In this document: piece by piece, positions 10,559 through 62,874 of the stretch | Numbering within the stretch: the stretch's first letter is position 1 | Layout: each line of letters begins with the position of its first letter | Assembly: GCA_028279595.1 (NCBI GenBank) | Contig: JANQNK010000019.1 | Span: 33,965 to 97,964 of the forward strand | Direction of reading: 5' to 3' | Length of the DNA stretch: 64,000 nt | DNA from: Thermoplasmatota archaeon | GTDB lineage: Archaea; Thermoplasmatota; JAKEGO01 | Position numbers and translations under genes: made by a program | The notes under the pieces: generated by a model | The model's input: the letters and a program-made list of their open reading frames with translations, nothing else | Databases searched by the model: none | Told to the model about the DNA's origin: nothing

Positions 10559-10727
10559 GTGGGCCCGCTGAGACCCGGGCGCTTAAGACCTCATTGATCT
10601 AGAATTCTAACGCACGGGTAAGGCGGGGCTACGATTGTCAGAGTGCAAGAATTAGAGTGGGCTTGCCGAGACCGGACGCTTAAGACCTCATTGATCTCCC
10701 GTTATAACGTCCGGGCTAGATGGCCCG
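10559..10727. repeat. Two type-A hairpin units derived from the tRNA-Pro 3' end (10559-10632, 10657-10727)
   Basis: Both start GTGGGCYYGCYGAGA like the tRNA-Pro 3' end and share CGCTTAAGACCTCATTGATCT; flanking stems differ but remain paired. Confidence 0.75.
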
Positions 10728-10736
10728 TAGGGTCAT

Positions 10737-11003
10737 CGAGATTCGACCTAGATGAAGCTCCGCTTCATCAGGGTTTGTGAATGGTCGACATATCGAATAC
10801 AGCATTCACAAACACTCTGTTGAAGAGCGACTTCTTATCAAGGCGGGCCCGTCGCTAATTAATTAATTAGGAGTGGGCCCGCCGAGATTCGACCTGGATG
10901 AAGCGGAGCTTCATCAGGGTTCGTGAATGATCGAGAATTCAATTACTTCATTCACAAACACTCTGTTGGAGAGCGAGTTCTTATCAACGCGGGCCCATCG
11001 CTA
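10737..11003. repeat. Two ~120-130 nt type-B structured units adjacent to the tRNA-Pro 3' end (10737-10857, 10873-11003)
   Basis: Direct repeats: CGAGATTCGACCT-GATGAAGCnnnGCTTCATC-GTTYGTGAATG...CATTCACAAAC-ACTCT..AGAG-TTCTTATC-GCGGGCCC. Confidence 0.85.
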
Positions 11004-11019
11004 ACTCATTGATTCTGAG

Positions 11020-11134
11020 TGGGCCCGCGGAGATTCGAACTCCGGTATCCAGCTGTCCGTTTCATCGGAGGGAAGCGGCTCCCCTCTCTACGAACCCCGA
11101 GCTGGGAGGATGGACCAAGCTACCCTACGGGCCC
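11020..11134 (-). tRNA. tRNA-Pro with ~40-nt intron (anticodon GGG or CGG, ambiguous)
   Basis: GGGCCCG/CGGGCCC-A acceptor, CCAGC/GCTGG anticodon stem, CGGAG-TTCGAAT-CTCCG T arm; TATA box at about 11159-11167. Confidence 0.85.
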
Positions 11135-17056: not shown

Positions 17057-20000
17057 CTACTGCTTCAGGCGCAGGGTCGCGGCACACTTCTCGCACTTGA
17101 TCTCCAGCGGGCGCTTCGGATCCTTCACGTCGATTATGTTGCCGCACTTCGGACACTTCACCTTCACCGGCTTGGCTCCTGCTGGCGGGGCTGCTGCAGC
17201 TCCGGCCGCCGCTCCTGCTGCTGCCGCGGGGGCCGCTCCGGGTGCCGGAGGCGCTCCGGGCTTCGGAGGTTCGCCGGGCTTCCCGGGAGCCGCTGGCGGG
17301 GCGCCAGGTGTTCCGGGTGCCGGGGGCGCGCCGGGCTTCGCCGCGTCCTTCGCGGGCTCCTTGGCGGCCTCCTTCGGTTGGTCCTTCTTACGCCTGCCGC
17401 CGAAGAGCAGCATGCCGATCAGTATACCGAGTATCAGACCGCCCGCGAGCGATCCGCCGACGTACATCATCAGGTCTCCCGATGCGAGCTCGTCCGTCTT
17501 CTCGTCGAAGGTGTAGTCCTTCTTCACGTTGATCTCGATCGGCTGGGCGCCGGTGGTCTGGATCCGGATGCTCTGCTTGCCGTCCCCGACATTGTCCCAA
17601 TCGAAGGTCAGGTCCTCGAACCTGTCCGCACCGAGCTCCTCGATCGTGAAGGTGTCCTTGACGGTGCTGCCGATGAGGAACTTGACCTCCAGGTCCGCTA
17701 TCGGACCGGAGCCGTTGTTCCACACACGGACCTCGACGACCACATCGTCACCCTTCTCGACCGAACTCGGGCTCGTGTCGAGCTTGATGTCGTGCTTCGA
17801 GATGCGGATGTCGGCCGCGAGGACCGTGACCACGAAGGTCTCGGTCTGGGAAGTTCCGCCCTCGGAGGAGGACACGCGGATCTGGAAGGAGAGTGTACCC
17901 TCCCTCGCATCCTCGTCGGCCGTCAGCTCCATCTCGACGACCTCCTCACCATCAGGATCGATCTGGAACGTTGCCGGATCTCCCTTGTTCGCGAAGTCGA
18001 CGTCCAGGTCAGCGGACATTCCCAGCGTCTGCAGCTTGAAGGTGTCCTCGAAGTTACCCTCGTTGTGGATGGTTATCGGCACCTCGACGAGGTCCTGCTT
18101 GTCGAGTCCGGTCGGATCTATCTCGGCGGTGGTGATGTCGATGGTCAACTCGAACCCTGCCACCTTCTCCACCTCGAGGGTCACGTTCTGCCAGACCCTC
18201 GCCTGGGTGTCGCCCGGACCGCCGCCCTTTGACTCTATGGCGATCATGTAGGAGTACTTGCCCTCCTCCGCGTCGACAGGTATCGTACCGACGTCGAACT
18301 CGAGGAACACCGTGCCGGGCGTTCCCGTCTCCATGTCCTCGATGGTCAGCGAGGTCCCGGTTCCGGAGATATCCTCGTACTTGAGGCTCACCCAGCTCGT
18401 GTCACCGGGTATCAGGTTCGAGTCCTCGAGGTCGGGTGTCTCGAACACGCGGATCTCGATGTTGTCCGGGTCGTCGCCGGTGTTCTCCACGTCGAACTGT
18501 AGTGTCACGTTGTGGTCGTCCTGCTCGGGGCTCACCTTTGCGGAGGATGTCGAGAACGCCACCGAGATGGAGTACGACTTCTCCTCGACCTCGGTTCTGT
18601 AGTCGATGTCGATCCTCTCGTTGGAGTCGATGCTGGACGTTATCTGGATCTTCTCCGCGAACTCGTCGATCTCCTTGTCCTGGATGTCGTCCTTGTCCCC
18701 GGTGATGATGTAGTCGACGAGCTCCTCGCCTCCCACCTTGATGGGCACGTTGATCGACTTGCCCTTCTTCTCGACGCCCTGGGAGTCGATCCACAAGAGG
18801 TTTCCGTACTTCAGGTTCTCATCATCGGTCAGCCTTACCTTGGCGATGTCCACCTTGTTCCCGTAGTTCGATATCTTGAACGTGTAGGTGGTGTTACCAC
18901 CAGGTTCCACGGTCGTGTCGTCATCGAGGCGCTCCTCCTCGAGGTCCGCCTTGGTGTCGATGCCGACGGTCACTGTGAACATTTCCTCCTGGGTGTCGTC
19001 CTCTTGAGACTCGACGGTCACCTCGATGTCATAGTCGCCTGCCGGTACACGCCAGAGCTCGTTCTTCGTGTCGTCGATGTCCATCAGGATGTTGACGGTC
19101 AGCTTGGCCTGGTCGTCGATCATTCCGCTGACATCGAAGCTGTGGCTGATATCGAGGAAGCTGTTGTTGGTGTTGTAGCTCACGGAGTACTTGTCCTCGG
19201 AGATACCGGTGTTCCTCACGGTGATGTCGAAGTCTACGTCCTCATCCTCCTTGGGATCGGTGATCGTCTGCTTGAGCTGCGCCGGAAGGTCCAGCTCGAA
19301 CCTGTAGACGTCGATGACCGTGGCGGTTATCTTGTCGTCAGCGTCTCCGAACGGGAACGTCGAGCCGTCCTCAGCGACGAGAGAGAACTCGAAGGTGATC
19401 TCGTTGTCGTCGTCGGCGTCGAACTCGTCGAGGACCTCGTCGATGTCAGGGGTTATCTGCAGCTTCACGGTGACCTCGGTGTCATGGTTTATGTTGATGT
19501 CCTGGAGGCTGGAACCGGATTCCGCACCTCTCGCGAACACATACCAGTCGTTCGTCGGGGTCACCTTCGATGCGGAGATGTCGAACGTGTCGTCGCCGTT
19601 GCCCTTGTTGATCACGTTGATCTCGAACTCGGTCATCTCCTCGACCTTCACATCCTTCTCGTTCTGGTCGATGTTCAGGTCCAGGTTGTAGAACTGCTCG
19701 ACCGTGAAGTCGAAGTTGATGGTCTCGACGACGGTGGTGTTCCCGTTCGACAGGACGTCGACGATGAGCCTTGGCGTACCGGCCTCGATGTCCTTTGGCT
19801 GGCCCGTCCTGCTCATCGTGATCGTCACGTCGACCTGACCCGTCCTGTTGGATATCTTCGCTCCGGAGTATCCGGTGGTGGCGAACGATACCTTGCCCGG
19901 GAACGGGTTGGAGACCACGTCGACGGTGTATGCATCGTCCCTCGTTCCAGTGTTCTTTATTCGGAAGTTGAAATCGATCTCGTCCGTGCCCTCGTCGGGG

Positions 20001-23000
20001 TCGGGGTTCCAGTTGATGTTCACGTCGAGCGGCTGGAGCTCGAAGTCGATGGAGAACTCCTCTATGTTGAAGTTCAGGATGAAGGTCCGGACGACGTCGT
20101 TGTCGCCACGGGATGTCACTTCGATCTCGACCTCGTAGGAGCCGGTCTGGATGTCGTTGTCGTTCGCCGGCAGTGTCACCCTCACGTCGATCTCCTCCGA
20201 CTCGCCCGGCTGGACCTTCTGGCCGCCGTAGTCGATGGATACCTGCATCTTCTGAGGGCTCGAGAGCTTGAGGATGGTGTATGTATCCTCCCTCGTACCT
20301 TCGTTCTGTATCTCGAAGGCCAGTTCCGCCTCGTCGGCCGAGTTGGCATCGACGTCTATGTTGTCCTGTGTCTCGACGATCTCGAAGTCGAAGACGGCCT
20401 TGAACTCGACGGTCAGGTTGATGTAGTCCTCCTTGTCCTCGTCCTCGAGCGAGTATCCCTTGATCTGTATCCTGTCGCTCGCGAGGGTGTCATCGCCGTA
20501 CAGGTCCTCGATGGTGTCCCTGTTCGGTATCCTCACGGTCACGTTGACCGTGTGGGTGACACTCGCGTTCTCGAGGATGATGTCGATCTCATCGACGTTC
20601 TGCGTGTTCTTGTAGCTGAAGTAGGTGTAGGATGCGAGCTTACCATCGGACACGAGCAGGTGGACGGTGTCCTCGCCGTTGCCCTTGTTCTCCACGTTGA
20701 TCTGGAAGGTCAGGTTCTTCTCGAACCGGCCCGTCTTGGTATCGGCGGGTGACTGTAGGTCCAGGTCGTACAGTGTGTTCACCTTGACGGTGAAGTTGAA
20801 GTCCTCGGAGAGATCGGAGTCGCCCTGCGACCTGACGCGGAGCACCATGATGTACTCGAGGGACTCTGCGTCGTCCGGTACGTCGATGTCGATCTCGAAG
20901 GTCTGGAACGTTCCCTCGTTGACGGTGATCTGGTTCGCCATGCCGATGGTCCATTCGTCGCCGCCCTCGTTCAGAACGATCTGCAGGCCGTAGGTGTCAT
21001 CGTCGTTCCCCTCGTTCTCGAGGGTGATCTCGAATGTGACGTTGTCGCCCGCGTCGACCTCCTTCCTCTCGTCGCCGGTCACCCGGAACTTGTAGAACTG
21101 GTCGACGTCGATGTTGAGCTCGATCGAGTCGGTCTTCGTCTCGTCGCCTATCGACTGTACGGTCATGTTGATGTAGTGGGGTCCTGTCTCGATGTTCTCG
21201 CCGGATATCTTCTCCGGGACCGGAATTGTCAGGTAGACAAGGACAAGCTGTTCTGGATCGAGCGGCCCGATCTCCGTCAGGATGGTCCTGTTAATGTCGT
21301 CGTCGTCGAGATCGAACACGTCGGTGGAATTGCCCTCGAAGGACCATCCCGCCATCTCGTCAGTGAGCTCGAACGAGTAGGTGTCCTCGGCGTCCCCGGT
21401 GTTCTTGACACGAACGGTGAAGGTCACCGAGGTTCCCGGGTCTCCGACGATGGATGTGGTGAACGAATTGATCTCGACATCGAAGGTCTCGTCAATGACG
21501 ATGGTCAGGTTCATCACCCTGTGGCCGTCATCGTGCGAGACGTTCAGCTCGACGTAGTAGGTTCCGGGGTCCTCATCCTCGGGAACCTCGACCCAGACGT
21601 ATGCGAAGTCCTCCTCCTCGGGATCGAGGGTCATCGAGGACAGGGTCTGACCGCCTCCGTCTGCCTGGCTTCTGATGGACGCCCAATCCTGTTCCGTCCC
21701 CTGCTTAGCCAGGGAGAACACGTCGTTGCCGTTGCCTTCGTTCGATACCTTCACGACGAAGTCGAACTTGTCGCCCGGTTCGACATCCTGGGAAGGCCCG
21801 CTCGTGAAGAGCTCGACCTCGTGGAACTGGTCGACGTTCACTTCGATCACATCTGATGCGATGTCATTTCCCTTTCCATCGGATTCGAACTCGATGTCGA
21901 TGAAGTAATCGCCTTCCGCTGCGTCATCCATGTCGTTCGGCAATGTGATGTTGATGCCGAGGATCTCGTTCTCCTCGGGATCGAGCCTGACGCGGGAATC
22001 GTTCGCATCGAAGAAGCTGACGTCCCAGTTGGTCGGTATGTCGCCGAACGTCACGTTGAACGTGTCGGTGTGCGTTCCCTTGTTCGTGATCACTATGGAA
22101 TAGTTGATCATCTCACCCGGAAGGCCGGACTTCGGATTGATCTGGCCGATCTGGACCTCGTACTGGGGCTTGATCGACACGGTGAACATGACCGTATCGG
22201 TGACTGTAGGCTCCTTCTGACACGTCACCTTGAGGCCGATCTCGAAGTAGCCGTCGTTCTGGATCGTCGGGTTGATGTCCTCCCACTCGGGGAGCGTGAT
22301 GTTCAGGAAGGCGATCTTGTCGTCTCCCGCCTTGATGTTCGGGGAGACCGGTTCGTGCGTGGCCCACGACCTGCCCTGTCCGGTCTTGTTGACCCAGAAC
22401 CTGCTGTCGCCGGTCCCGATGTTGCTGATCTGGAGCTCGAAGTAGACCGTCTGCTCGGGCTCTACCTCGTCCCACACGTCGGAGCTTGTCAGGAAGAGCT
22501 CGTAGACCGGCTCGATCACGATGGTGAAGGTTATCTCCTTCACGATGTCGTCGGTGTCATCGTAGGCGGTCCCGTTCTCGGATGTGGCCTGGTATGTGAT
22601 GTTGAACGCTCCCAGGTCGATGTCCTCCTTCTCGGGGAGGTCCACCCTTATCGTCGACCTGTTGACCATGCCGGCTGTGATCGAGTGGGTGGTGTTGATC
22701 AGTGTGACAGTGGCCTCGGTCGGAAGCTCGCTGCTGACCTCCTCCATCTCGATCGAGTCAGGTCCAGTGCCCTTGTTCTCCACATTGATGTAGAAGTAGA
22801 CCGTGTTCTCGGGCTTGGAGCTGACCTGCTCGACAGGGGTCGTGAGTCCGATGTCGTAGAGCTGGTCCACGACGACGGTAACACCGGCCGTGTTATGGAA
22901 CACGCTGTTTCCCGGTCCGGTCGTCGCGTTGAAGTTGATCGCATAGGTATCCTCTGCCGCATCGTCCGGGGGTGTCACTGTGAGGGTCAGGTTCACATTG

Positions 23001-25291
23001 GAGTTCGCATCGATCTCGGGGTTGCCCTGACTGAACTCGTAGGTCCAATCGACGGCCGGGTTCGAGATCTCGATCTTGATGTTGTCCTCTCCGTTCCCTT
23101 CGTTGTGCAGCCGTACCGTGAATGTGATCGCCTCACCTGGATCGGCGTGCTGGCTGTCGACACCAGGGATCGTCACCTTGCAGTCGAACACCTGGTTCAC
23201 GTTGATGCTGACGTCGTAGGTATCGGTCGTCAGAAGGGTCGCCTTCGATATCGCCTCGACCGTTACCGCGTAGGTGTCGTCGAGCGCGTCCTCGCCGATC
23301 TCGATCTCGAGGACTATTATCGTCTCTTCGGCCTCATCGAGCACGATGGAGGACGGAGTGAAGGTGTAGAAGTCCCATCCGGTGGGTCTGACCGCATCGA
23401 ACTCGACGGTCGCCCTGTCGTTCCCGATGTTCTTGACCTGAAGGTCCACGTACACGGTGCCTTCGGGGTCGAGGTCGGATGTGGTCGCATTGATCGTTCC
23501 GGTCATGATGTCGAAGTCATAGTACTGGTCGACAGTGACCGTGAAGACCAAGGGGGCGGAATAACTGCTGTCGCCCATCTGGGCCCGAACCGTCCACTGG
23601 TAGTCGCCTGCGGTGTACTCGACCGGTACCTTAACCGAGAACTGGATCTCGGCCGATTCGTCCGGGTCCAACTCGATGCTGGTCGGGCTGAAGGTTATCG
23701 AGCCCCAGCCGGTGGAATCCTCGTCGACGTATTCGAACGTAAAGGTATCCTGCCTGTTACCATCATTGGTGATGGTGAAGTTGAATCCGATCACCTTCGC
23801 CTGGTTCTGGATGTCCACTGCCTTGTTCGCCTCACCGTAGGTCCCTATCTCGACTCCGTAGTCCTGATCGACCTCGACAGCTAGGGCGAGCGGGATCGAT
23901 GATACCGACTCGTCACCAGTGGATGTCGCGTTGCAATACACGTTGTGGGGTCCATAGGACGCATCCTCGTGCACGTAAACACGCAGGGTGAGGGTGTCCT
24001 GCGAGTTTCCTGCGACCGTGAGGGTGGCCGACGGATCGAAGTTGAATCCCCAATCCTCGGGTACTTGGGCGAGCATGCTGAACGTGTCCTCGCCGTTCCC
24101 GTCGTTCACCACTGTAATGGTGGCGTTGCCCCATTCGCCTGGCATGATCTTTCCAGAAGGAGCGGTACCTTCGAGATGCACGTCGAATATCTGGTCCACC
24201 TCGGTGGATAGGACGATCGAGGTATTGGTGCCCTTTCCAACCTCCGGCACGATCACGACTGTCGTGTCGATCGTGGTATCCGCGAGTGCATCGTCGTCAG
24301 GCTGGACCTTGACGTTGATCACCCTTTCGTCGCTCTCGTCCAGGGTGAACGACGACGGGTTGATCGAAAAGGTCCATGGTGAGATGTCCTCGACGATGGT
24401 GACATCGAAGTCGACCCTTACATTCCCGGAATTGTTGAATGTGAGGTTGTACTCGATCCACTCGTTGGGAAGGCCGTTCTTCGCCGCATCGTCCACCGTG
24501 ATGGAATATGTGTAATCCTCGTTCACGGTGATGTTGATCTGTGCGGTCTCGGAGTCGCTGCCCTGAACCGATTCAGCGTTGAATATCAACGAATACTTCT
24601 TGGCCGTCGCGTACCGGCCGATCGTAACCTGGACAGGTACTGGCTTCGACGCTCCGGCTGCCAGCGAGTGGAGCTCGCCGAATGTGGTCGTAAGGTCTCC
24701 CGGGGTCTGGGTCAGGTTGATCTGGATCTGATCGTCACCGTTCCCGTAGTTGAAGATCCTCAGATTGAAGGAGACATCTTCCGATACGTTCCCGAACCTG
24801 CTGTCCGATCCGATGACGACGATGTCGACATCGTCCTCGAAGAGGATGTCGGTCCTGAAGTATATCGGAGCCTCCTCTGTACCATTAGTATTTGTTATGG
24901 TCACGTAAGTCTCCTCGTAATCACCGACCTCTGCGTCAGCAGGGGCTGTGATCTTCACGGAGGTGTACTTCCAACCGGAGTTGGTCACGTGCCAGCTGGA
25001 TACACCGCCGACGAACTCGTTGGACCAATCCGTGGTCGGAGTGCTGAGTGAAAGACTGATATCCGTCTCATATGGAGACGAACCGTCCTTCGTCAATCGC
25101 ACACCCACCTGGTATGTCACCGACTTGTTGGCTTCGACTTCCTTGTTGGCGCTGTCGACCGACGTAGCGTCGTTATCGACGTCAGCAACAGCGTTCCCGG
25201 TGGTCATCATCAGGAACACGAATCCAACAACTAACAATCCTGCGAGCACCAAGAGTGCTCGTGTTCTCCCGTTTTTCTGGGCAAACATCAA
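17057..25291 (-). CDS. Giant acidic cell-surface protein: ~20 COG1470/NPCBM-assoc Ig-like repeats, CARDB domain, TM helix, Pro/Ala linker, C-terminal Zn ribbon
   Basis: Signal peptide; recurrent N-x-G-[NT]-x2-D every ~110 aa; TM YVGGSLAGGLILGILIGMLLF; CPKC...CEKC. Confidence 0.85.
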   Translation of the reverse strand: MMFAQKNGRTRALLVLAGLLVVGFVFLMMTTGNAVADVDNDATSVDSANKEVEANKSVTYQVGVRLTKDGSSPYETDISLSLSTPTTDWSNEFVGGVSSWHVTNSGWKYTSVKITAPADAEVGDYEETYVTITNTNGTEEAPIYFRTDILFEDDVDIVVIGSDSRFGNVSEDVSFNLRIFNYGNGDDQIQINLTQTPGDLTTTFGELHSLAAGASKPVPVQVTIGRYATAKKYSLIFNAESVQGSDSETAQINITVNEDYTYSITVDDAAKNGLPNEWIEYNLTFNNSGNVRVDFDVTIVEDISPWTFSINPSSFTLDESDERVINVKVQPDDDALADTTIDTTVVIVPEVGKGTNTSIVLSTEVDQIFDVHLEGTAPSGKIMPGEWGNATITVVNDGNGEDTFSMLAQVPEDWGFNFDPSATLTVAGNSQDTLTLRVYVHEDASYGPHNVYCNATSTGDESVSSIPLALAVEVDQDYGVEIGTYGEANKAVDIQNQAKVIGFNFTITNDGNRQDTFTFEYVDEDSTGWGSITFSPTSIELDPDESAEIQFSVKVPVEYTAGDYQWTVRAQMGDSSYSAPLVFTVTVDQYYDFDIMTGTINATTSDLDPEGTVYVDLQVKNIGNDRATVEFDAVRPTGWDFYTFTPSSIVLDEAEETIIVLEIEIGEDALDDTYAVTVEAISKATLLTTDTYDVSINVNQVFDCKVTIPGVDSQHADPGEAITFTVRLHNEGNGEDNIKIEISNPAVDWTYEFSQGNPEIDANSNVNLTLTVTPPDDAAEDTYAINFNATTGPGNSVFHNTAGVTVVVDQLYDIGLTTPVEQVSSKPENTVYFYINVENKGTGPDSIEMEEVSSELPTEATVTLINTTHSITAGMVNRSTIRVDLPEKEDIDLGAFNITYQATSENGTAYDDTDDIVKEITFTIVIEPVYELFLTSSDVWDEVEPEQTVYFELQISNIGTGDSRFWVNKTGQGRSWATHEPVSPNIKAGDDKIAFLNITLPEWEDINPTIQNDGYFEIGLKVTCQKEPTVTDTVMFTVSIKPQYEVQIGQINPKSGLPGEMINYSIVITNKGTHTDTFNVTFGDIPTNWDVSFFDANDSRVRLDPEENEILGINITLPNDMDDAAEGDYFIDIEFESDGKGNDIASDVIEVNVDQFHEVELFTSGPSQDVEPGDKFDFVVKVSNEGNGNDVFSLAKQGTEQDWASIRSQADGGGQTLSSMTLDPEEEDFAYVWVEVPEDEDPGTYYVELNVSHDDGHRVMNLTIVIDETFDVEINSFTTSIVGDPGTSVTFTVRVKNTGDAEDTYSFELTDEMAGWSFEGNSTDVFDLDDDDINRTILTEIGPLDPEQLVLVYLTIPVPEKISGENIETGPHYINMTVQSIGDETKTDSIELNIDVDQFYKFRVTGDERKEVDAGDNVTFEITLENEGNDDDTYGLQIVLNEGGDEWTIGMANQITVNEGTFQTFEIDIDVPDDAESLEYIMVLRVRSQGDSDLSEDFNFTVKVNTLYDLDLQSPADTKTGRFEKNLTFQINVENKGNGEDTVHLLVSDGKLASYTYFSYKNTQNVDEIDIILENASVTHTVNVTVRIPNRDTIEDLYGDDTLASDRIQIKGYSLEDEDKEDYINLTVEFKAVFDFEIVETQDNIDVDANSADEAELAFEIQNEGTREDTYTILKLSSPQKMQVSIDYGGQKVQPGESEEIDVRVTLPANDNDIQTGSYEVEIEVTSRGDNDVVRTFILNFNIEEFSIDFELQPLDVNINWNPDPDEGTDEIDFNFRIKNTGTRDDAYTVDVVSNPFPGKVSFATTGYSGAKISNRTGQVDVTITMSRTGQPKDIEAGTPRLIVDVLSNGNTTVVETINFDFTVEQFYNLDLNIDQNEKDVKVEEMTEFEINVINKGNGDDTFDISASKVTPTNDWYVFARGAESGSSLQDININHDTEVTVKLQITPDIDEVLDEFDADDDNEITFEFSLVAEDGSTFPFGDADDKITATVIDVYRFELDLPAQLKQTITDPKEDEDVDFDITVRNTGISEDKYSVSYNTNNSFLDISHSFDVSGMIDDQAKLTVNILMDIDDTKNELWRVPAGDYDIEVTVESQEDDTQEEMFTVTVGIDTKADLEEERLDDDTTVEPGGNTTYTFKISNYGNKVDIAKVRLTDDENLKYGNLLWIDSQGVEKKGKSINVPIKVGGEELVDYIITGDKDDIQDKEIDEFAEKIQITSSIDSNERIDIDYRTEVEEKSYSISVAFSTSSAKVSPEQDDHNVTLQFDVENTGDDPDNIEIRVFETPDLEDSNLIPGDTSWVSLKYEDISGTGTSLTIEDMETGTPGTVFLEFDVGTIPVDAEEGKYSYMIAIESKGGGPGDTQARVWQNVTLEVEKVAGFELTIDITTAEIDPTGLDKQDLVEVPITIHNEGNFEDTFKLQTLGMSADLDVDFANKGDPATFQIDPDGEEVVEMELTADEDAREGTLSFQIRVSSSEGGTSQTETFVVTVLAADIRISKHDIKLDTSPSSVEKGDDVVVEVRVWNNGSGPIADLEVKFLIGSTVKDTFTIEELGADRFEDLTFDWDNVGDGKQSIRIQTTGAQPIEINVKKDYTFDEKTDELASGDLMMYVGGSLAGGLILGILIGMLLFGGRRKKDQPKEAAKEPAKDAAKPGAPPAPGTPGAPPAAPGKPGEPPKPGAPPAPGAAPAAAAGAAAGAAAAPPAGAKPVKVKCPKCGNIIDVKDPKRPLEIKCEKCAATLRLKQ

Positions 25292-62480: not shown

Positions 62481-62755
62481 TGGGGGGAGGGACCAGGGAT
62501 TCCACAAGTCGGATACGATATGGAATCTCTGGGCTAGTCGATTCCCGCGGTAAGGGAATCGACGTCTGCAAGAGTCTTCGAGCACTACCACCTGGGTACA
62601 GACTCGAATTGACGAGAAGGTGGTGGTGCGGGGGAAGGGCTCGACTTCAATGATGCTTCGCATCATTTCGGTTCGGAAACATATTGAATGATGTTGGGAA
62701 TCAGTTTCCGAACACCCTACGCTAGGGCTAGGGTTCTTATCCACCCGACGCACCA
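62481..62755. repeat. Structured units adjacent to the tRNA-Leu 3' end (type-B unit 62624-62755; type-A-like hairpins 62481-62563)
   Basis: 62624 TGGTGCGGGGGAAGGG duplicates the tRNA-Leu 3' end; same hairpin order and TTCTTATC motif as the tRNA-Pro units. Confidence 0.75.
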
Positions 62756-62786
62756 TTCCTCCAAGTACTCATTAATTAAAACGGAA

Positions 62787-62874
62787 TGGTGCGGGGGAAG
62801 GGATTCGAACCCCCGAACCACTAAAGGACGGGATCTTAAGTCCCGCGCCGTTGGCCAGGCTTGGCTACCCCCGC
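62787..62874 (-). tRNA. tRNA-Leu(TAA), CCA encoded
   Basis: GCGGGGG/CCCCCGC-ACCA, CGGGA-CT-TAA-GA-TCCCG, long variable arm, TTCGAAT T loop. Confidence 0.95.

What the first reader, a model, noticed from the sequence alone, without database searches (positions are those of the whole stretch)
10737..11003. tRNA-anchored structured element family (type B) shared by two different tRNA loci: candidate undescribed system
Seen: two units 3' of tRNA-Pro (10737-10857, 10873-11003) and one unit 52 kb away 3' of tRNA-Leu (62624-62755) share this order on the + strand: copy of the host tRNA 3' end; TCGAC; hairpin 1 (GATGAAGC-nnn-GCTTCATC or AATGATGC-TTC-GCATCATT); hairpin 2 (GTTTGTGAATG/CATTCACAAAC or GTTCGGAAAC/GTTTCCGAAC); hairpin 3 (CTCT/AGAG or CCCT/AGGG, a compensatory change); invariant TTCTTATC; closing arm. 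Stems differ in sequence between loci but stay paired. The closing helix matches the host tRNA: TGGGCCCGC/GCGGGCCCA at Pro (complete in the 10873 unit, 5' arm degenerate in the 10737 unit) and TGGTGCG/CGCACCA at Leu. On the tRNA-sense strand a complete unit therefore starts and ends like its tRNA and forms a multi-arm junction. Inference: a structure-conserved family, either a non-autonomous element that inserts at tRNA 3' ends and regenerates the site, or co-transcribed tRNA-mimic ncRNAs. No integrase or transposase is encoded in the window, so any enzyme would act in trans. I do not recognise it as a named family.
Basis: partly seen in the sequence, partly recalled or inferred. Interest (0 to 1): 0.9.

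Follow-up and report, generated by a model that had tools for sequence, protein, structure and literature searches.

The report
Four-way hairpin cassettes behind archaeal tRNAs
In several groups of uncultured archaea, many tRNA genes are followed by stacks of tiny gene-less DNA cassettes that copy the tRNA's tail in both directions and fold into a cross shape, which points to an undescribed way of docking DNA onto tRNA genes.

Summary
The three units are real. They belong to a family of 140-170-nt non-coding cassettes. This genome has 16, all behind tRNA 3' ends, and five Thermoplasmatota families carry them. Rfam has no match.

On the tRNA-sense strand each unit is an antisense copy of the host T-arm, then a sense copy split at T54|T55 by two hairpins. 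It folds into a gap-free four-way junction (70 of 83 units).

The two 'invariant' motifs are T-loop remnants, and the closing arm is antisense to the tail, so this is not a tRNA mimic. Hairpin cargo follows lineage, not tRNA isotype. Some arrays hold another tRNA's tail, and copy number varies.

DNA-type loops and very few G-T pairs favour folded single-stranded DNA. A companion class folds on the opposite strand and joins at the mirror position, 59|60.

Best reading: integron/CTX-like cassettes docked at the T-loop by an enzyme acting in trans. The enzyme is unidentified; RT, Cas1, Y1 and GIY-YIG were not found in this genome. The nearest described kind is the E. coli tRNA-linked repeats. This scan noted the same or similar elements before, on other contigs of this genome and in DPANN, haloarchaea and CPR bacteria.

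The parts
11020..11134 (-). Host tRNA-Pro(GGG) with a 40-nt intron at 11055-11094; anchor of the Pro array
   Evidence: orthologue with intron in G002
10998..11019 (-). AT-rich spacer of the proximal B cassette
10975..10997 (-). Antisense arm of the proximal B cassette (degenerate reverse complement of host positions 51-73); 5' strand of P0 and start of P1
   Evidence: in register with the reverse complement of the host tail
10960..10978 (-). P1 hairpin (4 bp, 11-nt loop); stem follows the host T stem
10919..10959 (-).
10893..10918 (-).
10874..10892 (-). Direct copy of host tRNA positions 55-73 (18 of 19 identical)
10738..10873 (-). Second B cassette: spacer 10852-10873, antisense arm from 10851, P1 10814-10832, P2 10773-10813, P3 10747-10772, tail copy 55-63 only (10738-10746)
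   Evidence: CM hit 115 bits as a training sequence
10658..10737 (-). Companion module of the 60-class, which as a class folds on the opposite strand: short hairpin 10719-10737, long hairpin 10672-10715, degenerate tail copy from position 60 at 10658-10671
   Evidence: this unit alone folds weakly; the same composite is at tRNA-Thr(CGT)
10560..10657 (-). Distal companion (type A) cassette: spacer, antisense arm, long hairpin 10574-10618, terminal tail copy from position 60 at 10560-10573
62787..62874 (-). Host tRNA-Leu(TAA) with encoded CCA
62624..62786 (-). B cassette at Leu: spacer, antisense arm from about 62759, P1 62714-62734, P2 62671-62713, P3 62645-62670, tail copy 62624-62644 (one base short in the T loop)
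62481..62623 (-). Companion three-hairpin cassette of the 60-class (hairpins at about 62583-62623, 62537-62563 and 62493-62533) ending in a decayed tail copy from position 60
   Evidence: same type at other Gly and Leu loci

Best explanation
These are tiny non-autonomous DNA cassettes that pile up, newest first, behind tRNA genes. Their working form is folded single-stranded DNA.

SHOWN: each cassette runs from the T loop through the tRNA tail, a spacer, an antisense T-arm and three hairpins. The folded sense strand rebuilds the T-arm as a duplex whose top strand is opened at 54|55 by a flush four-way junction, with a bulged base 2-3 bp into P3. Cargo is shared across tRNA isotypes. Internal tail copies are sometimes foreign, while the last one is the host's own. 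A sister class has the opposite strand polarity and joins at 59|60, the mirror position about the T-loop centre.

INFERRED: a small single-stranded circle folds its two tail copies into an att-like duplex. It is joined to the T loop of a tRNA gene, or of an existing tail copy, by one strand exchange on either strand, and replication completes the job, as for attC cassettes and CTX phage. Arrays then grow by further insertion or slippage. The arms are re-matched to the host by selection plus hairpin-templated repair or gene conversion.

Odds by step: DNA-level mobile or accreting element about 0.8; folded ssDNA as substrate about 0.65; a tyrosine recombinase (XerA or a T-loop island integrase) as the enzyme about 0.35.
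For: 16 of 16 strong CM hits in the genome lie behind a tRNA end or a displaced one; the same holds in 5 families and for the 38 archaeal pattern hits among 185,579 genomes. Covariation: 92% paired, 28 of 31 pairs change on both sides, against 31-50% paired when slid. Flush junction in 70 of 83; the P3 closing pair, which the search pattern did not impose, holds in 72 of 83 against 11 expected; bulge on the 3' strand in 54, on the 5' strand in 0. Cargo identity across genomes is 0.471 for the same isotype and 0.474 for different ones, with near-identical cargo at Ala/Leu/Ser (0.87-0.90) and Leu/His (0.89). Foreign tail plus trailer (55 of 56 identical to the Gly(GCC) array) inside the Gly(TCC) array of G019; Leu-like tail in this genome's Arg(TCG) array. 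Copy number 2 against 4 at one locus, and decayed distal units. DNA signature: GNA triloops 37 on the sense strand against 5 antisense; two-base cCNNGg tips; G-T in 3 of 680 P2 pairs against 18 of 492 in host tRNA stems (loop motifs PMC3201870). Opposite polarity of the 60-class: loop motif 31:8 against 4:23, mismatch types also reversed. One gene-bearing cassette ends in the same hairpins (L172). Island integrases in this genome have right-hand repeats that start inside the T loop.
Against: No enzyme is linked to the arrays, and the island integrase family does not track the carriers. No circle or excised form was seen (contigs of one run only). The 5-nt offset between 54|55 and 59|60 is shorter than the usual 6-8-bp overlap of tyrosine recombinases (own knowledge), and P1 (3-6 bp) is too short to bind a recombinase monomer. 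A circle carrying a foreign tail would break a tRNA of another isotype unless repaired. The sense-strand bias of type B also fits an RNA. Double-sided covariation can arise from palindrome repair without selection. Sequences are related, so the p-values overstate, and the pattern search imposed P0 and the P1 loop length on part of the set.
Confidence: 0.6

Rival explanations
1. Co-transcribed RNA devices in the pre-tRNA trailer (processing, termination or decoy). The antisense arm would switch between pairing with the tRNA tail and with the downstream copy; repeats would spread by duplication and conversion.
For: Type B is always co-oriented and 15-60 nt behind the tRNA; its stable loops and purine mismatches lie on the transcribed strand; perfect four-way junctions occur in RNA (own knowledge); three E. 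coli TLRs are processed small RNAs (PMC8144298).
Against: G-U nearly absent; triloops with C-G closure and variable two-base loops are DNA-stable motifs; the 60-class folds on the non-transcribed strand; orthologous tRNAs differ freely in having units (Leu(TAA) has them here and none in G001); units remain after being pushed 5-15 kb away by islands.
Confidence: 0.15
2. No dedicated enzyme: template switching at the T-arm palindrome makes sense-antisense-sense triplications, palindrome repair perfects the stems, and ectopic gene conversion spreads hairpin cargo among tRNA loci.
For: The sense-antisense-sense layout is what two template switches give (own knowledge); trailers are co-duplicated locally; double-sided changes without wobble intermediates; the loop is flipped between the two Pro units; no candidate enzyme co-occurs.
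Against: Does not explain base-exact junctions at 54|55 and 59|60, the flush junction kept with C-G or T-A closing pairs and through a one-base shift in a subtype, the one-sided bulge, fixed unit lengths (about 168 nt for different cassette types), or the two motif copies with class-specific polarity.
Confidence: 0.12
3. Elements inserted by a staggered-cut or target-primed enzyme (unknown transposase, Cas1-like, HUH or RT supplied by visiting mobile elements) that duplicates host positions 55-73 or 60-73 as a target-site duplication, with the antisense arm acting as a guide.
For: Spacer and hairpins are shared across isotypes while the repeat is host-specific and ends near position 73-74; a casposase targets a tRNA-Pro 3' end in a relative (PMC5137440).
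Against: No terminal inverted repeats; the casposon duplication overlaps the tRNA by only 5 bp; foreign tails travel with their trailers; RT not found in f1, f2, f9, f18, Cas1 not found in 8 of 11 carriers, Y1 and GIY-YIG not found here. The genomes are 73-97% complete.
Confidence: 0.13

Closest known systems
E. coli tRNA-linked repeats (TLRs; Rudd 1999, described in PMC8144298)
   Same: Short non-coding units, 1-5 per locus, directly behind tRNA genes, each ending in 18-19 bp identical to the upstream tRNA 3' end; function unknown.
   Different: In the text read, TLRs are not described as having an antisense T-arm, a four-way junction, cross-isotype cargo exchange or two polarities. No sequence comparison with TLRs was run; these units are archaeal.
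Integron attC cassettes (PMC5027507)
   Same: Structure conserved without sequence; folded single strand with extrahelical base and branched end; polar arrays; similar size; an occasional gene passenger.
   Different: No IntI or attI next to the arrays; RYYYAAC consensus not met; the site is a host tRNA T-arm; nearly all cassettes are gene-less; both polarities are common.
CTX phage and IMEX integration by host XerCD (PMC4792948)
   Same: An enzyme-less element folds two inverted copies of the chromosomal target into an att-like duplex.
   Different: The target is a tRNA T loop at more than 10 isotypes, not dif; 150 nt rather than a phage genome; four-way junction and bulge present.
tRNA-integrating islands with tyrosine integrases (PMC8371274; T-loop class from own knowledge)
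   Same: Direct repeat from the T loop to the tRNA end; tandem accretion; such islands sit in the same genome and push the cassettes away.
   Different: No integrase gene, two orders of magnitude smaller, host-matched antisense arm; the islands lack the cassette loop motif at their ends.
CGTC-tagged REPs (PMC3733652) and casposons (PMC5137440)
   Same: A CGTC-like unpaired motif and no dedicated transposase (REPs); tRNA T-arm targeting in Thermoplasmatota (casposon).
   Different: The motif lies inside loops, units are 140-170 nt and confined to tRNAs; no terminal inverted repeats, polymerase or Cas1, and a different duplicated segment.

Membership tests
Any Rfam 15 family | Match at gathering score | tested here: not met
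   Only tRNA hits in the window and in 11 loci; E-value mode gave nothing below 0.6
tRNA-linked repeats (TLR) | 18-19 bp identical to the 3' end of the upstream tRNA, in tandem units at tRNA loci | tested here: met
   Mean repeat identity to own host 0.92 against 0.66 to other hosts
tRNA-linked repeats (TLR) | Sequence homology to the enterobacterial TLR families | not tested
   No search against E. coli TLRs was run
Integron attC cassette | R box with RYYYAAC / GTTRRRY core | tested here: not met
   The arm ends in AAC but the upstream bases are T-loop complement
Integron attC cassette | Folded single strand with extrahelical base and strand asymmetry | tested here: met
   3' bulge 54 of 83, 5' bulge 0; strand-biased loops and mismatches
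Integron attC cassette | Linked IntI and attI platform | tested here: not met
   No tyrosine recombinase in the window; three island integrases score 43-47 bits against an IntI cut-off of 265
Integron attC cassette | Recombination of the folded strand with replicative resolution | not testable with these tools
   Needs biochemistry
IMEX (CTX-type) | Folded att mimicking dif, used by Xer | tested here: not met
   The folded duplex mimics the tRNA T-arm; a XerA-like gene is present but untested
Casposon or MITE | Terminal inverted repeats inside a target duplication; cognate transposase | tested here: not met
   Cassette ends are not inverted repeats of each other; Cas1 not found in 8 of 11 carriers
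REP/REPIN, IS200/IS605 derivatives | Terminal tetranucleotide tag, genome-wide dispersal, Y1 transposase | tested here: not met
   Hits confined to tRNA ends; no PF01797 here; motif internal
Retron or RT-linked ncRNA | Linked or co-occurring reverse transcriptase | tested here: not met
   None in G000 or in f1, f2, f9, f18; RT loci of two carriers have no tRNA nearby
tRNA mimic ncRNA | Acceptor stem with free discriminator/CCA and intact T loop | tested here: not met
   The antisense arm pairs over the discriminator/CCA and with the T loop
tRNA mimic ncRNA | Expressed, processed RNA | not testable with these tools
   No RNA holder listed
Hammerhead, hairpin or HDV-like (theta) ribozymes | Conserved catalytic core nucleotides | tested here: not met
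   No Rfam hit; CTGATGA occurs in a few units only and lies inside P3; few invariant columns

The most novel reading that the evidence does not exclude
A widespread, undescribed cassette system in which tRNA genes act as the integron platform. Gene-less or gene-bearing single-stranded circles fold into a Holliday-junction mimic with a host-programmed T-arm, and one trans-acting enzyme inserts them on either strand of the T loop, and in mirror form at the D arm.
Probability: 0.35. Interest if true: 0.9.

Novelty: new variant of a known kind. Interest (0 to 1): 0.72.

Why it matters
tRNA genes are the main landing sites for foreign DNA in prokaryotes, yet repeats ending in a tRNA tail (known in E. 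coli since 1978) have no known origin or function. Here such repeats show base-exact junctions, a conserved four-way fold, exchange between tRNA isotypes and two mirror-image polarities. That turns a curiosity into a precise biochemical test: which enzyme acts at 54|55 and 59|60? If the DNA model holds, it would add a natural case of folded single-strand recombination beside integrons and CTX-type elements, and a structure-guided route into an almost universal target.

Tried and rejected
Rfam at gathering and E-value thresholds: nothing. Viral contigs, phage and plasmid collections: no match. The two bacterial pattern hits are minus-strand tRNA genes. An unanchored junction parser was too permissive (36% of shuffles passed) and was replaced by an anchored test. 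RT, Cas1, Y1, GIY-YIG and the island-integrase family do not track the carriers; small GIY-YIG genes in other families are not near tRNAs. No RNA holder listed; the one DNA run gives contigs only and showed no variant or circle. Ribozyme readings were dropped for lack of a conserved core. The idea that reverse transcription adds CCA at the junction was looked at by eye only and was not decisive. Ten literature searches found no description of this family.

Full report
OBSERVATION. They lie 3' of tRNA-Pro(GGG) (11020-11134, minus strand, 40-nt intron) and tRNA-Leu(TAA) (62787-62874). They fold much better than shuffles, and the source run confirms the Pro array base for base. Aligning each unit to its host shows what the motifs are. 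On the tRNA-sense strand the 5' arm is a degenerate reverse complement of host positions of about 51-76, and the 3' arm is a direct copy from position 55 on. The TCGAC motif and the 'invariant' 8-mer are therefore T-loop remnants, hairpin 3 is the T-stem half of the antisense arm, and the unit is not a tRNA mimic.

EXTENT. The window is part of a 2.29-Mb, 86%-complete genome from a small Thermoplasmatota class, apparently from a coral metagenome. A covariance model built on 9 units finds 16 units at 38 bits or more; 7 were not in training. All 16 lie behind a tRNA 3' end, one of them pushed about 5 kb away by an island. Counting companion types by eye, about 25 of 43 tRNA genes carry modules. 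Among 151 genomes of the phylum, strong hits occur in five families, directly behind and co-oriented with tRNAs wherever the contig allows a check. A pattern scan of 185,579 species gave 40 loci: 38 Thermoplasmatota, all at tRNAs or displaced ends, and 2 chance matches to reverse-strand bacterial tRNAs. Nothing was found in viral contigs, phages or plasmids, or in Rfam.

ANATOMY. The fold has four helices. P0 pairs the antisense arm with the tail copy; P1 closes the antisense T stem; P2 is a long hairpin; P3 is a short one. Pairing is 92%, with two-sided changes at 28 of 31 pairs, against 31-50% for slid registers (the alignment was fitted to the model). In an anchored test, all four junction pairs are Watson-Crick with no unpaired base in 70 of 83 units. 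The P3 closing pair, not imposed by the search pattern, holds in 72 of 83 against 11 when slid, as C-G in some lineages and T-A in others. A subtype shifts the whole junction by one base and stays flush. P3 has a single bulged base 2-3 bp from the junction, on its 3' strand in 54 units and never on the 5' strand. In effect the T-arm bottom strand is continuous and the top strand is opened at T54|T55 by a 61-95-nt two-hairpin insert.

DNA OR RNA. Type B folds on the sense strand: GNA triloops 37 sense against 5 antisense, and purine-purine mismatches 33 against 1 pyrimidine counterpart. Its loops are the extra-stable DNA types cGNAg and cCNNGg (PMC3201870), and G-T pairs are rare (3 of 680, against 18 of 492 in host tRNA stems). 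The register was chosen to maximise Watson-Crick pairs, so this is somewhat biased; the model-based count was 10 of 922. Companion cassettes, including those at 10560-10737 and 62481-62623, repeat the tail from position 60 (30 cases, against 56 from position 55 in a set enriched for B). They show the opposite polarity: the loop motif TRACG is sense 31 to antisense 8 in B but 4 to 23 in the 60-class, and the mismatch types reverse too. A class that folds on the non-transcribed strand is hard to explain as RNA. Positions 54|55 on the top strand and 59|60 on the bottom strand are mirror images about T-loop position 57.

MOBILITY. Cargo follows lineage, not isotype. The T-loop purine of the repeat matches the host in 61 of 64 (the three misses are mis-assigned hosts), and that of the antisense arm in 49 of 64, mostly failing in this family, where the arm is degenerate. 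In G019 the Gly(TCC) array contains the Gly(GCC) tail and trailer (55 of 56 identical) and ends in its own tail; this genome's Arg(TCG) array has a Leu-like internal tail. Orthologous loci differ between genera, copy number differs (2 against 4 at Arg(GCG)), distal units are decayed, and different cassette types share a period near 160-170 nt in some lineages. One metagenomic array holds a 198-aa AT-rich gene in a cassette ending in the same hairpins as its gene-less neighbour.

ENZYME. Not identified. This genome has a XerA-like gene and six tyrosine integrases on tRNA islands; for three islands the right-hand repeat was found and starts at positions 56-59. It has no detectable RT, Y1, Cas1 or GIY-YIG. 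None of the RT, Cas1, GIY-YIG or island-integrase families tracks the carriers, and all the genomes are incomplete.

MECHANISM. The best-supported reading is a non-autonomous cassette whose folded single strand rebuilds the target and is joined to the T loop by one strand exchange, then resolved by replication, as in attC and CTX phage (PMC5027507, PMC4792948). The architecture, polarity and movement between loci are shown; the circle, the exchange and the enzyme are inferred. Difficulties are the 5-nt offset, the short P1, and the need to repair a tRNA after a foreign tail is inserted. Rivals are an RNA trailer device, enzyme-free template switching with gene conversion, and a duplication-making transposase or RT.

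COMPARISON AND NOVELTY. It meets the one defining feature of E. coli tRNA-linked repeats, whose function is unknown (PMC8144298). It probably works like attC or CTX sites but fails their membership tests, and those of casposons, CGTC REPs and retrons. I found no paper describing it. Earlier notes of this scan describe the same family on other contigs of this genome and similar elements in DPANN, haloarchaea and CPR bacteria; I treat them as leads only. Verdict: real, a new variant of a known but unexplained kind, with about one chance in three of being a distinct cassette system.

Noticed in passing
G000 C5:36210-36346 (L020), C1 upstream of 146140 (L002), C4 upstream of tRNA-Tyr and tRNA-Asp, C14 upstream of tRNA-Leu(TAG): Mirror-image modules upstream of tRNAs: a copy of the first 10-26 nt of the tRNA, hairpins, and often an antisense copy of the 5' end. 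At Arg(CCT) the copy stops in the D loop and the unit is tandem, suggesting the D arm is also a target.
   Followed up: partly
G000 C18:348830-348960 (Val), C19:33140-33265 (Glu); G002 tRNA-Pro (L022): A third four-helix type with a fully paired antisense T loop, a GNA-capped P1 and the junction near 58|59.
   Followed up: partly
window 11094-11101: tRNA-Pro(GGG) reads C at position 33 instead of the usual U, also in G002; ARAGORN misreads the gene.
   Followed up: no
G000 C18:304200-304900 (L015) and C18:97497-97543 (L127): Orphan cassettes with no tRNA gene next to them, possibly displaced by rearrangement.
   Followed up: partly
G000 C7:7418-21947, C9:44275-54475, C19:187891-196579, C14:112277-117600, C1 and C5 near tRNA-Leu: Six integrase-bearing islands in tRNA genes; in four the hairpin cassettes sit beyond the far end, so the islands arrived later.
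   Followed up: partly
L172:190-786: A 198-aa AT-rich protein with an N-terminal membrane segment and only weak Pfam hits, carried in a 60-class cassette behind tRNA-Ser(GCT).
   Followed up: partly
G001 contigs C65, C140, C161, C124, C92, C74, C182; G000 C1 end and C15 end: Assemblies often break inside these arrays, so they are under-counted in metagenome-assembled genomes.
   Followed up: no
G001 loci L041, L044, L048, L054, L058: Another hairpin family with T-rich/A-rich arms follows tRNAs in G001 and appears upstream of tRNA-Lys(CTT) in G000.
   Followed up: no
G107 C186:1935-2060 (L093, L126): A GC-rich, differently built tail-repeat array behind tRNA-Arg(TCT) in family f8, weakly hit by the model.
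   Followed up: no
G000 C14:114636-114719: A Leu-type tRNA body with a CGC anticodon inside the Arg(TCG) island (also noted by e1-5614706).
   Followed up: no
window 17057-25291 (minus strand): A 2744-aa ORF, not examined.
   Followed up: no
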